From Octopus vulgaris (taxonomy: Eukaryota): a stretch of 64,000 bases of DNA. Position numbers: made by a program. This document shows, piece by piece, positions 1-14,600 of the stretch (its first letter is position 1; each line of letters starts with the position of its first letter). The stretch lies in NCBI GenBank assembly GCA_951406725.2, contig OX597842.1, forward strand, positions 19,840,001-19,904,000. Reading direction: 5' to 3'.

Positions 1-2619
1 ATTCAAGCATCAGAAATCTGAATTAAATATTAACAGAGCAAACTTACACAGACTAGAAAGGCACAGAAAATCAAAGGGGAGAATGTATGGTGTTACAGCT
101 CCTTTCTTGGCAATCGGGGTTACTTCATTGTTGGTAGATGTACCATCCATACTCACAAATAGGTCTCACTTTTTTTCACCAAAAATTTAGATAAAAATCA
201 GGGGTACAAACTATCCAATAGATATCACAGGGATCTGAAGTGGTGCATCGGAGGTCCATGGCATACCCTGGACCTGGGCTTTTCAGTTTTAAAATTGTTA
301 TGGAAACTTTTCTGCAATGTTTACTAGAAAGCAGAAACTGGAAGTTTGGTATTTGGTATTTTTTGACATCCAGTCATCCCAATCTTTAGTTTAAAAATTT
401 TGATAATTGCAAACCCTACTTACAAAGTTATAGTAAGAGTTATCAATAGGCGCAGAAGTGGCTGTGTGGTAAGTAGCTTGCTTACGAACCACATGGTTCC
501 GGGTTCAGTCTCACTGTGTGGCATGTTGGGCAAGTGTCTTCTACTATAGCCTTGGGCCGACCAAAGCCTTGTGAGTGGATTTGGTAGACAGAAACTGAAA
601 GAAGCCCGTCGTATATATGTATATATATATATGTGTGTTTGTGTGTCTGTTTGTCCTCCAAACATCGCTTGACAACTGATGCTGGTGTGTCTATGTCCCC
701 GTTACTTAGCAGTTCGGCAAAAGAGAACTGATAGAATAAGTACTAGGCTTACAAGGAATAAATCCTGGGGTCGATTTGATCGACAAAACGCGGTGCTCCT
801 GCATGGCCACAGTCAAATGACTGAAACAAGTAAAAAGAGAAAAAGAATATAACCCCCACACACACACACCTTGGTATTGACCCCCTCATCCTTTGCCCTT
901 GTGGCAAATAAAAGAAACCCTTATTATATACAACTATCAGCTGAGTTCATTGTGAAGATGGCCCCTCTACTTTCCTTCAACCAGGAAGGGTAATCAGTTT
1001 TTATCTGCTCAGGGCCCATTGCAAAAGGGATCATACAGTGGACATGTCTGAAAGGGCTGAAGACCAGCAATTGCCATTTTGTCAAAACCCTAATAAACTT
1101 TGTCAGGTTTCACTTGAAGAGGAAAATCAGGGTGGAGAGGTAAGTGCTGGCTTCCAAGCAGTTTGTTGAAAGGTGGGTGAGAGAGGTGAGCATTACCTGA
1201 GTGAATGGGCCTTCTCTCAAAGTGTACCTGTATATTGGAGAGGAAAGACCGGGAGAGGGCATCCACCCTGGTGGTCAGGGAGACCTTGGATTTACTGGGC
1301 TTTCGTAACGCGTAGCCCTTGACAGTCCCCCCACTATCAGGTCTCTTACTTTGAATTTCTTTTATTCTTTGTATGACTTTTTACATGCTAAAACCCACAC
1401 TGTACCCTCCCGAATGTTTTCCTTTGTGTTAGCCCTCTGTGGTTAATAAAGAAATTATTATAAATCATTTCTTACTCTTTATCTCCAAATCAATTTTTCG
1501 AACGTTAAGGTTGTCATCATCAAATATCCAAGTCAAACATTTCTTAGTTACTTTTTTGATCCAAAGCGTGGAGGTATCTCCATCCTGTGTCACTTTATAG
1601 TCAGGGCCATCAGCGCATGTCTTGTCACATTCATATTTATAATTGCGGCACATCCAAACCACCGGTCGTTTCATATAAGGTATTGTTATCGTAAGGGTGA
1701 GACATCCATTGAGCACAGCAATTCCTGAAATAATGAAATCAGTTAAGAAGTTTGCTTCCAAATCATATGTTCCCGGGTTCAGTCCCACTACACTGCACCT
1801 TGGGAAAGTGTCTTCTACTACAGCCTGTGTGGATTTGCTAGATGGAAACTGAAAGAAGCCCATTGTATGTATCTGTGTGTGTGTGTATGTATATGTGTGT
1901 GTGTATATATGTATATACATACACACTTGTGTGTTTCAAAGCCTTGTGAGTGTATTTGATAGATGGAAACTGAAAGAAGCCCTTTGTTTATATATATGTA
2001 TATATATATGTAAATAGAAAATTATTATTTCTAAGTCACTGAATGAGAAACATTCAGTAACATTACTCGAGAGTAAGGATTATTTGCCAACATAATATGG
2101 CAGTCCTAGTTAGGATGATTGTTACTGTTATCTAGCCCTAGGAAACACTGCCTCCAGCTGGGTATATGACACATTATCTATGTCCTATGGGATGCTAAAC
2201 TTCCTTGTTTGAAAATATAAGGATGCAGCTAGTGTGTCATATAGCCAGTTGGAGACGATGTTTCCTAGGGCTAAGAACAGTAACAATCGTCCAGACCAGG
2301 ACTGCCACATTATGTTGGCAAATAATCTTTACCCTAGAGTACTGTTACTCAATGTCTTTTGTTCAGAGATTTAGAAATAATTTTCTATTTTTTAGATCAG
2401 TGACTGTGTGTCACTTTGGAAAGTATATATTTTGGACAAGAGTTTAGTGGAGTCATCTCTAGCCGAGCAGTTATTCTGTGCTGATGAAGGGAAATAACAC
2501 AGAGACCATTGGTATGCAGATAGTGTGCTGTATAACCAGCTGGAGATGATGTTTCCTGAGACTAAATAACAGTACCATTCGTCCTAACCAGGACTGCCAC
2601 ATTATGTTGGCAAATAATC

Positions 2620-2657
<38 letters not shown>

Positions 2658-11600: not shown

Positions 11601-14600
11601 ACATCCATGCGTACACGTTAATAGAGAGGAAGCAAAGACTGAAAAATTTCAGACGGAGAATATTCAAGCATCAGAAATCTGAATTAAATATTAACAGAGC
11701 AAACTTACACAGACTAGAAAGGTACAGAAAATCAAAGGGGAGAATGTATGGTGTTACAGCTCCTTTCTTGGCGATCGGGGTTACTTCATTGTTGGTAGTT
11801 GTACCATCCATACTCACAAATAGGTCTCACTTTTTTTTCACCAAAAATTTAGATAAAAATCAAGGGTACAACCTATCCAATAGATATCACAGGGATCTGA
11901 AGTGGTGTATCGGTAGTCCATGGCACCTGGGCTTTTCAGTTTTAAATTTGTTATGGAAACTTTTCTGCAATGTTTACTAGAAAGCAGAAACTGGAAGTTT
12001 GGTATTTGGTACTTTTTTGACATCCAGTCACCCCAATATTTAGTTTAAAAATTTTAATAATTGCAAACCCTACTTACAAGTTATGGAAAAAAATTAAATA
12101 AAATATAAATAAAACTTACAGACAAATGTTACAAACAAACAGCAGAACAAGATCCATTTAGCCATGATCTGAAAAAATAATTTGCAAAATTTGCAAAATA
12201 ACAAAGTTTATAACCCAGGGTCCGAGGCTGGTCAGGCTGAGAAAAACAAACAGTCACAATATCATCAGTCACTCTTTAATAGATTTGTGGTCGAGCCTGT
12301 GGCATTGGAGATCTTATTCTTAACTATTTCAAATACTATAGAACGCTGTACAGTAGAGACAAGTGCAGTTTGAACTTGCACAAACACTTTTTGCTACAGC
12401 ATTTTCACGTCAAAATAAACGTTTTCTGAAGAAAATTCTAAATCATTTGAAACTTCTAACTGTGAACATTCTTCTTACTCTTTACTCTTTTACTTGTTTC
12501 AGTCATTTGACTGCGGCCATGCTGGAGCACCGCCTTTAGTCGAGCAAATCGACCCCGGGACTTATTCTTTGTAAACCCAGTACTTATTCTATCGGTCTCT
12601 TTTGCCGAACTGCTAAGTGATGGGGACGTAAACATACCAGCATCGGTTGTGAAGCAATGCTAGGGGGACAAACACAGACACACACATACATATATATGAA
12701 AGGCTTCTTTCAGTTTCCGTCTACCAAATCCACTCACAAGGCATTGGTCAGCCCGGGGCTATAGCAGAAGACACTTGCCCGATATGCCACGCAGTGGGAC
12801 TGAACCCGGAACCATGTGGTTGGTAAGCAAGCTACTTACCACACAGCCACTCCTGCGCCTTCTTGTATAGTTTTTCTGAAAATCCAACAGTTACAGATCA
12901 TGTCAGGTTCCCTGAAACTCCATGGTATTTCCTCGCATTTACAAACTTTGTTTTTTTCTTGGACTTTTGAATGACAACCCTCGTTCTAGTTCAATGCACT
13001 CAAGCACCATAACTCATGTTGCATTCAAAAATCATGCGTCCCCGAAGTCCATCCCCTCCTCACCGTGGTGGGGACACTGGCAACGGGTAGTGTCAGAGCT
13101 ATGCTGTCGGGAACTTCGGTTCCTTGTAGGGCCACCCAAGGCAGATTGGTCTTACACCGAGTGGTATTAGGCCCACAACCCGGCAGACGGTGCTCTGGTG
13201 AAAATCCTCGGAGTGTCTGTTTCAGCAACTGGCGGCTCCTCGGTCTTTGGGTTGTCTCTCTCTCTCTCCACATCTCCTAATGAGTTACCAGTAAGTTACA
13301 GATATTGATAGAGTCTTGAATTTACATTTTTAATGCTTAAAATAAGGAATTAGTTTTCACATTTTGTTTGTTCTTTAATCTATGTCTACATGTAATTCTG
13401 TGAAAGGTACACAGTGTCTGTGTGATATGCAAGACACAACAGCTAAATCTCCCTCATATCACCCATCTTTTCATGTGAAAATCACTCATCCTTTCATTTC
13501 ACCAAGAAAAACAAAAAAACAGTAGAAATTACATTTAAATATTTTCAAAAATTCATGGTGACACCTATTTCAAATGGTACCCTCTAAATTAAAACTACAT
13601 ACAAAAAAAGATAAAATAACGATTTTTATTGAGGAAAATTTTTGGAATGAAATCTTTTTGGAATGGTGGGTTTATGGTCGAGTGTGCACATTGGAGACCT
13701 CTGGCACCCTAGGGCCCTCAGCTGTATCCCTGCTCACAGCTATCGGGCAGAAATGGCTACCTGCATGTGCAAGCCCTGTGGGTCTCCATTGCCCACCTCT
13801 AGGGCAACTCCTTTTCTATTTTGTCTGCTGGGACGTTGAGGTGGTCTGAATTACAACAAACTGTATGTTCCATTCCTTAACCCTTTCTTTACCATATTTC
13901 TGTCGAGATGTTCTGTGTTTCTTTCAATTACTTTAAATATAACAAAGAATTTAGTAAAATAACTTAGTTATCATTAAGATAGTATTAGGAACATAAATTG
14001 TGATTAAGGTTTGGTGGAAGATTTGAATTCAAAACTTAAGAAAACAAGACATTTGTACTACAGAGCCAGAGGTGGTTTCGGTCGGGTTGGTAACAAAAGG
14101 GTTAATGTAAAATTTGAAGAGACAGATTTAAACTTTACACTGTTTCCGCCTCCTCCCCCTTTTTTTTTGAGTTTTATCAATTACTATACAACACTAAAGC
14201 AACTGCATTTTTTGTCTCTTTCTTTCTTCTTGCTGAATGAAAACAAATACCAAATTACAGGTATTTGTATAATTGTGGCCTTCCAGGTAGAATCCTGGTT
14301 TAAACAGTTCTTATAATTTCAGAAAATTTTTGCAACACACACAAATTAATATAATTATTGAAAAGACATAAAATGGATCATAAAATGAAATATCATCTTA
14401 ATTATTAATTTAAGAGAATCAGTATCAGAAAATAGCATATTGATATATTACTGATGTTCACCTTAATTTTACGAAATAATCTTTAATATATATCTTGTGT
14501 TTTTATTACAATACAATCCAATATTTACAACAGAATCTCTTCTTTTTGGACAAACCTTATAGTTGTGGCTTGATGCAATGGGAAGTTTCAAAAACCAACT

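What the first reader, a model, noticed from the sequence alone, without database searches (positions are those of the whole stretch)
1..12168. One signal-peptide exon feeding a tandem array of diverged, frame-compatible Ig-like cassettes
Seen: gene A has a single ATG/signal exon (12120-12165) followed by repeated two-exon cassettes (10374-10412 + 6761-7009; 3996-4034 + 1476-1724). The same duplication junction at ~416 shows that at least one more unit begins left of the window. The breakpoint falls ~35 nt inside the intron after the signal exon, so cassettes carry neither a signal exon nor a TM exon. All junctions are phase 1 with intact GT/AG. Cassettes can therefore be read in series (...DLEIK-S-FSSANIYKITQSG-IAVLN..., a 96-aa period), skipped or mixed. 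Only signal exon joined directly to an Ig exon gives a stop (T+GA). Inference: this is either a recently multimerised ectodomain or a Dscam-like system choosing among variable cassettes upstream of a shared TM exon, i.e. a candidate diversified cephalopod surface receptor.
Basis: partly seen in the sequence, partly recalled or inferred. Interest (0 to 1): 0.85.

Follow-up and report, generated by a model that had tools for sequence, protein, structure and literature searches.

The report
Domain-coding exon pair multiplied inside a gene
A young tandem duplication inside a small mollusc-type membrane-protein gene has copied the two exons that encode its single outer domain at least three times, in frame, which is how multi-domain receptors are thought to arise and is ordinary in kind.

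Summary
All five exons, their AG/GT sites, phase 1, the 288-nt (96-codon) cassette, the T+GA stop and the repeated junction are as described.

New here: a paralogue ("gene B", 61409..56229, minus strand) has the same signal, mini and domain exons once. About 1.2 kb further on it has a phase-1 exon encoding a Pro-rich stalk, a transmembrane helix, a 7-residue tail and a stop.

In gene A a 5.3-6.4 kb unit is repeated head to tail. It runs from intron 1 (+36) to 14 nt past a SINE-like repeat in intron 3. Two full units and 431 nt of a third are visible.

"Ig-like" is only a lead. Pfam and PDB searches gave nothing, two AlphaFold models had pLDDT 40 and 46, and ESM Atlas put V-set clusters at 0.87-0.91.

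The most likely result is serial splicing into a multi-domain ectodomain. Dscam-like choice is neither supported nor excluded. The cassettes lack their own ATG or promoter, joint inclusion stays in frame, and no docking pairing was found. Copies form a gene-conversion mosaic.

Transcripts, the left flank and homologues were not checked.

The parts
12120..12165 (-). Gene A signal exon. It runs from the ATG, encodes 15 codons + 1 base (MAKWILFCCLFVTFV) and has donor GTAAGT.
   Evidence: hydrophobic 9-mer mean 2.91
12085..12119 (-). First 35 nt of intron 1. This is the only part of that intron not included in the repeated unit.
   Evidence: (homology of the units ends at 12084)
5717..12084 (-). 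Tandem unit A1 (6368 nt). In order it holds the intron-1-derived part, the mini exon, intron 2 (with about 0.9-1.1 kb extra repeat DNA around 8124-9000 and an extra 185 nt near 7230-7415), the domain exon, about 600 nt of well-kept intron, a SINE-like repeat and a 14-nt filler.
10374..10412 (-). Cassette A1 mini exon (39 nt; LSRAQNYNITQS between split codons). It differs at 7 of 39 nt from the other two mini exons.
6761..7009 (-). Cassette A1 domain exon (249 nt, 82 whole codons, 4 Cys).
5731..6128 (-). SINE-like interspersed repeat at the end of unit A1. It is followed by the 14-nt filler 5717-5730 and the junction.
432..5716 (-). Tandem unit A2 (5285 nt), same layout as A1. Its SINE-like repeat is at 446-843 and its filler at 432-445.
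3996..4034 (-). Cassette A2 mini exon (FSSANIYKITQS). It matches gene B's mini exon at 39 of 39 nt.
1476..1724 (-). Cassette A2 domain exon. It differs from A1 at 10 of 249 nt (91% protein identity) and has one extra Cys.
1..431 (-). Start of a third unit (A3), cut by the window edge. It differs from A2 at 13 of 431 nt, from A1 at 14 of 421 and from B at 13 of 430.
61364..61409 (-). Gene B signal exon (MAKWILFYCLFVTFL). It differs from gene A's at 2 nt, both changing the residue.
59607..59645 (-). Gene B mini exon.
57597..57845 (-). Gene B domain exon. It differs from A1 and from A2 at 32 of 249 nt and is 74-76% identical in protein.
56229..56362 (-). Gene B last coding exon. The acceptor CAG ends at 56363. 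The exon starts with AT (phase 1), then encodes 43 codons (PKPEPPKPKTYSILEIVGIIFGSLILAAILVGLAFFGYKYFTK) and ends with stop 56231..56229. AATAAA at 56233..56228 overlaps the stop.
   Evidence: highest hydropathy, 2.76, among minus-strand ORFs of 40000-57596; unique in the window
12481..12860 (+). Inverted copy of the SINE-like repeat upstream of gene A's signal exon. The counterpart for gene B is at 61718-62111.

Best explanation
The window holds two paralogues of a lineage-specific gene for a small type I membrane glycoprotein. The family is probably molluscan. The protein has a signal peptide, then one beta-rich extracellular domain of about 96 residues with 4 Cys, split over a 39-nt and a 249-nt exon. 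A proline-rich stalk, one transmembrane helix and a tail of about 7 residues follow. Gene B shows the plain form, about 155 codons in four coding exons. In gene A a segment running from 36 nt into intron 1 to 14 nt past a SINE-like repeat in intron 3 was duplicated head to tail, and the unit carrying that junction was copied again. There are now at least three units, and none has a promoter, signal exon or TM exon. All exons are phase 1-1 and the splice sites of the copies are almost letter-identical. Ordinary exon definition should therefore splice them in series: signal exon, then (mini + domain) n times, then presumably the TM exon left of the window. The product would be a surface protein with n tandem domains and a 13-residue linker from each inner mini exon. 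Shown: the anatomy, the frames, the junctions, the TM exon of the paralogue and the mosaic of identities that indicates gene conversion between copies. Inferred: that gene A still ends in a TM exon, that the copies are spliced in series, that the domain is Ig/V-like, and that the protein is a receptor or adhesion molecule. With so short a tail it would need a partner to signal.
For: Exons, phases and splice sites. Tandem units and identical junctions. The third copy is distinct from A2, A1 and B (13/431, 14/421, 13/430). The 25 nt shown on each side of the A1 and A2 mini exons are identical. The shown flanks of the A1 and A2 domain exons differ at one position in the pyrimidine tract. The paralogue has a single cassette plus a phase-compatible stalk/TM/stop exon, found independently by a hydropathy scan. 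Only three domain exons exist in the window (3 loci at E<=1e-36, next best E 0.28). The reading frame was kept through the A/B divergence: 0 indels in the exons where 4.1 were expected from 17 indel events per 160 substitutions in 3979 aligned non-coding bases, P=0.016. Of 82 domain positions, 59 are invariant, including 4 Cys and 3 Trp. The nearest ESM Atlas neighbours are mollusc hypothetical-protein clusters of 109-163 aa at 0.92-0.94, for both A1 and B1 exons. No start or signal exon lies inside the cassettes. No TM exon lies inside the cassettes.
Against: No transcript was seen, so serial splicing is inference only. Gene A's 3' end is outside the window, and its TM exon is assumed from gene B. 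Nothing shows that cassette A2 is under coding constraint. Between A1 and A2 there are 0 indels against 1.5 expected (P=0.22). dN/dS is about 1.5 on 10 differences, which is what a dead copy would also give. A2 has an extra, odd Cys. dN/dS between A and B is 1.2-1.65, so there is no signal of purifying selection on residues. The domain exon is not more diverged than its most diverged flanks (32/249 against 47/473, p=0.26). Units 95-99% alike are the kind of structure that assemblers can get wrong.
Confidence: 0.5

Rival explanations
1. Cassette choice: one leader exon is joined to one of several alternative domain cassettes and then to the shared TM exon. This could work by mutually exclusive splicing or by regulated skipping. 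It would give single-domain receptors that differ in their outer domain, a nascent Dscam-like system.
For: The cassettes are homologous and have the same length and phase. In the Drosophila X chromosome only 90 of 16180 non-mutually-exclusive exons share those features (PMC3228551, section 13 read). The mini exon of A1 differs from the others at 7 of 39 nt against 32 of 619 in its own tract (p=0.0056). That change adds an N-x-T sequon. Any combination that keeps a mini exon after the signal exon stays in frame.
Against: Nothing enforces exclusivity. A cassette is 288 nt, so joint inclusion stays in frame, and the introns are 1.7-3.4 kb (coordinates). The 35-nt unique start of intron 1 pairs no better with the cassette intron than shuffles do (dG -11.8; 52 of 60 shuffles were as low or lower). 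A1 and A2 domains are 91% identical, so little diversity is on offer. Only 2 full cassettes are visible.
Confidence: 0.15
2. The extra cassettes are inert. The duplication is real, but the inner copies are skipped or gene A is decaying, so only a single-domain protein or none is made.
For: There is no evidence of constraint between A1 and A2. A2 has an odd fifth Cys. The units carry repeat insertions and are being overwritten by gene conversion.
Against: All 4 cassette exons keep open frames and consensus splice sites. Using B as outgroup, both A1 and A2 carry 5 private changes in the domain exon. By my reading of the alignment, 4 of A1's 5 and all 5 of A2's change the residue. The copies are too young for this to weigh much.
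Confidence: 0.2
3. Assembly artefact: haplotypes or the two paralogues were stitched into a false or inflated tandem array.
For: The units are 95-99% alike. About 1 kb around A2's mini exon (A2 4352..3357) is 99.2-99.6% identical to gene B in four 250-column windows, while its 3' part is about 99% identical to A1. A chimeric join could produce this pattern.
Against: The junction has a specific 14-nt filler and occurs twice, identically. Three copies of the intron-1-derived start are mutually distinct at about 3%, more than two haplotypes can give. The window has no N. The mosaic changes partner gradually over several blocks rather than at one join.
Confidence: 0.12

Closest known systems
Chelicerate sDscam-alpha: tandem 5' cassettes of two exons, each encoding one Ig domain (PMC4835542; abstract and sections 5 and 9 read)
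   Same: Both have head-to-tail cassettes of two exons that together encode one extracellular domain, placed upstream of shared exons that include the membrane anchor.
   Different: In sDscam each cassette has its own promoter and ATG, and transcripts share no upstream exon. Here the breakpoint removes the promoter and signal exon from every copy. sDscam-alpha has at least 40 cassettes, against 2 full and 1 partial visible here. No sequence relation to Dscam was found.
Insect Dscam1 clusters of mutually exclusive exons (seen as search listings and abstracts; mechanism recalled)
   Same: Both have an array of homologous exons with the same phase inside one gene, between constant exons.
   Different: As I recall, Dscam1 variants are single exons that each encode half or all of an Ig domain, closely spaced, with docking and selector RNA pairing. 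Here the units are 5-6 kb and include repeats. No pairing signal was found. Joint inclusion is in frame.
Domain multiplication by duplication of phase-symmetric (1-1) exons, as held for immunoglobulin-superfamily and other modular extracellular proteins (established knowledge, recalled; PMC3632108 seen as a listing and abstract start)
   Same: A 1-1 exon set encoding a whole domain is duplicated in tandem inside a gene, so the copies read in frame.
   Different: Here the event is young: the units are 95-99% identical and the junction is still readable. The domain's membership of the immunoglobulin superfamily is not established.

Membership tests
Immunoglobulin superfamily, V-set-like domain | Match to a curated Ig/V-set sequence profile | tested here: not met
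   0 of 3 domain-exon peptides reach any Pfam family at E<=10, apart from one chance hit (Sgo0707_N2, E 0.15, 12 bits against a cut-off of 27); the best PDB hit has E 0.68 (an antibody VH, aligned out of register), and the profile search gave 0 hits.
Immunoglobulin superfamily, V-set-like domain | Beta-sandwich fold | tested here: inconclusive
   mean pLDDT 40.3 and 46.0, with only beta strands predicted. No fold search was run on such models. The exon alone lacks the part encoded by the mini exon, and the two were not joined.
Immunoglobulin superfamily, V-set-like domain | Cys in strand B and Cys in strand F with a Trp in strand C between them (feature recalled) | tested here: not met
   the conserved Cys are at 25, 32, 36 and 62 and the Trp at 23, 54 and 65. 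There is no Cys before Trp23, so the canonical pair is absent. An Ig fold without that pair is possible.
Immunoglobulin superfamily, V-set-like domain | Domain bounded by phase-1 introns (typical rather than defining; recalled) | tested here: met
Immunoglobulin superfamily, V-set-like domain | Language-model neighbours in Ig families | tested here: inconclusive
   V-set clusters score 0.87-0.89 for A1 and 0.90-0.91 for B1, sharing 146-153 of 256 features. That is below the 170 typical of true members. The tool itself rates scores under 0.9 as leads only.
Dscam-type mutually exclusive exon cluster | Tandem homologous exons of the same length and phase | tested here: met
Dscam-type mutually exclusive exon cluster | Exactly one variant per message | not testable with these tools
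   No transcript data are available.
Dscam-type mutually exclusive exon cluster | A mechanism that forbids joint inclusion (frame shift, steric limit, or docking/selector pairing) | tested here: not met
   The cassette is 288 nt and in frame, and the introns are 1.7-3.4 kb. One search found no excess pairing for the 35-nt unique intron start. The intron before gene A's TM exon is outside the window and was not tested.
sDscam / clustered-protocadherin type variable 5' cassettes | Each cassette has its own promoter and start codon | tested here: not met
   0 ATG/signal-like phase-1 exons in the intron-1-derived parts of A1, A2 and A3. There are 2 weak candidates with poor donors inside the SINE-like repeat; the breakpoint lies downstream of the signal exon.
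Intragenic tandem duplication of a phase-symmetric exon set | Direct repeats sharing one junction, with symmetric phases, open frames and intact splice sites | tested here: met
Intragenic tandem duplication of a phase-symmetric exon set | Message carrying the repeated domains | not testable with these tools
   No transcript data are available.

The most novel reading that the evidence does not exclude
Gene A is a newly born variable-cassette surface receptor of a mollusc. One leader exon and one TM exon bracket an expanding array of domain cassettes. The cassettes are chosen or combined by splicing and kept different by selection and gene conversion. This would be an independent, non-arthropod origin of Dscam-like isoform diversity, caught at the two-to-few-cassette stage.
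Probability: 0.12. Interest if true: 0.8.

Novelty: new member of a known kind. Interest (0 to 1): 0.4.

Why it matters
If the copies are spliced in series, this is a clean, datable example of a single-domain membrane protein becoming a multi-domain one. The breakpoints, the filler and the single-domain paralogue are all still readable side by side. If the copies are chosen between instead, it would be an early stage of a diversified receptor outside arthropods. Either way one RT-PCR or long-read cDNA experiment decides it. As it stands the mechanism is textbook, and the protein family has no known function.

Tried and rejected
1. Exon-limited acceleration. The domain exon looked much more diverged than the 600 nt after it (A1/B1 32/249 against 14/597, p=8e-9; A1/A2 10/249 against 5/600, p=0.003). 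It is not more diverged than the 290 nt before it plus the SINE part (47/473, p=0.26). I therefore dropped this as evidence for positive selection. Only the A1 mini exon remains a local cluster.

2. Terminal-exon reading. Reading through the domain exon's donor gives a stop after 3 codons in A1 and A2, and there is an AATAAA about 105 nt on. Atlas neighbours of 109-116 aa fitted a secreted protein of about 114 codons. I set this aside for two reasons. A 1-nt indel just past GTAAG changes that tail in gene B to 27 more codons (SKE… to the stop in the ORF 57508..58107, against SKK in A1/A2). Gene B also has an in-phase TM exon.

3. Structure. Two AlphaFold jobs gave pLDDT 40.3 and 46.0, so no fold search was run.

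4. Sequence searches. Pfam and PDB searches were empty.

5. Docking/selector pairing: none found.

6. Cryptic signal exons and TM exons inside the cassettes: none credible.

7. tRNA-like head of the SINE-like repeat: ARAGORN found 0 genes and Rfam found only 2 histone stem-loops.

8. Literature. Searches listed no paper on such a family or array in cephalopods or other molluscs. Only listings were scanned, apart from the papers named in the report.
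Full report
**Observation**

On the minus strand there is a 46-nt exon that starts with ATG and ends before GTAAGT (12165..12120). There are two 39-nt exons (10412..10374 and 4034..3996) and two 249-nt exons (7009..6761 and 1724..1476). 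Each internal exon follows a pyrimidine tract plus CAG and is followed by GTAA.

The lengths put every junction in phase 1, and one cassette is 288 nt, or 96 codons. The exon frames are open. The junction codons are T+GT (Cys), G+GA (Gly) and A+GT (Ser). The window has no N.

**The duplication**

Self-comparison and a three-way alignment show a head-to-tail repeat. Unit A1 is 12084..5717 (6368 nt) and unit A2 is 5716..432 (5285 nt). Positions 431..1 are the start of a third unit, A3.

Each unit begins at position 36 of intron 1. It then runs through the mini exon, intron 2, the domain exon and about 600 nt of intron. It ends with a roughly 390-nt SINE-like repeat (5731-6128 and 446-843) plus 14 nt of filler.

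By my reading, the two 126-nt junction stretches printed are identical. The unit that already carried the junction was therefore copied again.

The three copies of the 431-nt start are mutually distinct:
- A3/A2: 13 of 431
- A3/A1: 14 of 421
- A3/B: 13 of 430

Two haplotypes alone cannot give three distinct copies. A1 also carries extra repeat DNA in intron 2, around 8124-9000, and an extra 185 nt near 7230-7415.

**The paralogue and the TM exon**

The right end of the window holds a second gene, B, in the same orientation. Region 9138-14728 matches 58374-64000 at 95.9%. Gene B's exons are:
- signal exon 61409..61364
- mini exon 59645..59607, identical at 39 of 39 nt to A2's
- domain exon 57845..57597, differing at 32 of 249 nt from each A exon

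tblastn with the three exon peptides finds only these three domain exons in the window (E<=1e-36; next best E 0.28).

I ran a hydropathy scan of all minus-strand ORFs in 40000-57596. The top hit (mean 2.76) was an ORF 1.2 kb below gene B's domain exon. It has a pyrimidine tract and a CAG acceptor ending at 56363. The exon starts with AT, so it is in phase 1 (A+AT = Asn). It encodes 43 codons: a Pro-rich stalk, a 20-odd-residue hydrophobic helix and a tail ending YKYFTK. The stop is at 56231..56229, with AATAAA overlapping it.

This exon is unique in the window. No comparable exon lies in 1-12119.

By codon count gene B is 15+1+12+1+82+1+43 = 155 codons. It has a signal peptide, one domain, a stalk, a TM helix and a very short tail. 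The joined (spliced) protein was never built, searched or folded, so whatever only the whole domain or whole protein would reveal stays open.

**What the domain is**

- Pfam gives no family for any of the 3 domain-exon peptides. One chance hit falls far below cut-off.
- The PDB sequence search gives one hit at E 0.68, out of register. The profile search gives none.
- AlphaFold2 with the 3-sequence alignment gave mean pLDDT 40.3. With B1 alone it gave 46.0. Only strands were predicted, so I ran no fold search.
- For both A1 and B1, ESM Atlas puts clusters of mollusc hypothetical proteins of 109-163 aa nearest (0.92-0.94, sharing 163-185 of 256 features). V-set/Ig clusters follow at 0.87-0.91, sharing 146-153 features. 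By the tool's own calibration that is a lead.
- Of 82 positions, 59 are invariant among the three copies, including Cys25, 32, 36 and 62 and Trp23, 54 and 65. The canonical Ig Cys pair is not there.

'Ig-like' is thus plausible on size, all-beta prediction, 1-1 phase and feature neighbours, but it is not shown. 'Mollusc' rests on the few Atlas members with a recorded taxon. 'Cephalopod' was not tested.

**Divergence**

The copies form a mosaic:
- From 10412 to 9750, A2 equals B at 39 of 41 informative sites.
- From 7300 to 5860, A1 equals A2 and B is the odd one out.
- In the first 600 nt of the unit, A2 is the odd one out at 11 of 19 sites.

This pattern indicates gene conversion among the copies.

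Between A and B the domain exon differs at 32 of 249 nt. The comparison regions for A1 against B1 are:
- the next ~600 nt (6760-6151): 15 of 607
- the preceding 290 nt: 20 of 191
- the SINE part: 27 of 282

Against the last two regions combined the exon is not elevated (p=0.26). What stands out is the well-kept 600-nt block after the exon, which I cannot explain.

dN/dS is 1.2-1.65 for A against B and 1.5 for A1 against A2. None is distinguishable from 1 on these counts. The frame was kept through the A/B divergence: 0 indels in the exons against 4.1 expected (P=0.016). For A1 against A2 the expectation is 1.5 (P=0.22).

The A1 mini exon is a true local cluster. It differs at 7 of 39 nt, against 32 of 619 in its own tract (p=0.0056). 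Six of the seven differences change the residue. The changes create an N-I-T sequon.

**How it most likely works**

The splice sites of the inner copies match those of the first copy, apart from one base in a pyrimidine tract. All exons are 1-1. Nothing in view forbids joint inclusion. The default expectation is therefore serial splicing into a protein with n tandem domains on one stalk and TM helix.

Cassette choice gets 0.15:
- It fits the homologous same-phase layout. In Drosophila, neighbouring exons with such features are rarely constitutive (PMC3228551, section 13).
- Against it, the cassettes have no start of their own, there is no pairing signal, and A1 and A2 are 91% identical in protein.

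Inert inner copies get 0.2 and an assembly artefact gets 0.12.

**Comparison with known systems**

The nearest published architecture is chelicerate sDscam-alpha. It has tandem two-exon cassettes, each encoding one Ig domain (PMC4835542; abstract and sections 5 and 9 read). There, each cassette has its own promoter and ATG. That feature was tested here and is not met.

Insect Dscam1 clusters share only the array of same-phase homologous exons.

The best fit is the general process of domain multiplication by duplication of phase-symmetric exons. That rests on established knowledge, which I recall. PMC3632108 was seen only as a listing.

**Not checked**

The sDscam paper's supplementary figures on cassette starts were not seen.
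- I did not take the window for human. The histone and zinc-finger ORFs were read by eye only and sent to no search.

**Verdict**

This is a real and neatly readable young intragenic duplication in a lineage-specific membrane-protein gene. It is ordinary in mechanism, with a small chance of being an early variable-cassette receptor.

Noticed in passing
window 23525-32395: A histone gene cluster. I read the ORFs by eye as H2B (23620-24033 -), H2A (24264-24644 +), H3 (27448-27867 -) and H4 (inside 27998-28447 +), with a second H2B/H2A pair at 31269-31682 and 31913-32293. Rfam finds histone 3' stem-loops at 23547-23592 (-) and 28476-28521 (+). Region 23525-24746 matches 31174-32395 at 98.3%. The gene names come from my own reading, not from a search.
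   Followed up: partly
window 35349-36101 and 38110-39141, minus strand: Two long ORFs made of C2H2 zinc-finger repeats, each embedded in internally repetitive DNA. I read them by eye and did not search them.
   Followed up: no
window 49365-50141, minus strand: A remnant of a piggyBac-type transposase. It matches Pfam DDE_Tnp_1_7 at E 7e-16 and covers only the last half of the profile.
   Followed up: partly
window 446-843, 5731-6128, 12481-12860, 19821-20202, 21804-22152, 42492-43118, 46507-46908, 50877-51265, 56566-56965, 61718-62111: A SINE-like interspersed repeat of about 390 nt, present in both orientations. A 173-183-nt piece of it is amplified into tandem arrays at 45785-46690 and 51091-51957. 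No tRNA-like or Rfam match was found.
   Followed up: partly
window 12481-12860 against 5731-6128 and 446-843; 61718-62111 against 56566-56965: In both genes an inverted copy of the repeat lies upstream of the signal exon, opposite in orientation to the copy after each domain exon. If the upstream copy is transcribed, the pairs could base-pair in the pre-mRNA.
   Followed up: no
window 6151-6760, 866-1475, 56990-57596: The roughly 600 nt just after each domain exon are far better kept than the blocks on either side. A1 against B differs at 15 of 607 nt here, against 20 of 191 before the exon and 27 of 282 in the SINE part. A1 against A2 differs at 5 of 600. The 96-aa ORF in this block has no Pfam match. 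It could be a recent conversion tract or a functional intron element. This is unresolved.
   Followed up: partly
window 12166-12190 and 61410-61434: A pyrimidine tract and CAG lie 3 nt before the ATG of both signal exons. The ATG exon probably has an upstream non-coding exon, which I did not locate.
   Followed up: no
window 44000-45300: A block of TA/CA-type simple repeats more than 1 kb long. It is the lowest-GC stretch of the window (0.279 in 44001-46000).
   Followed up: no
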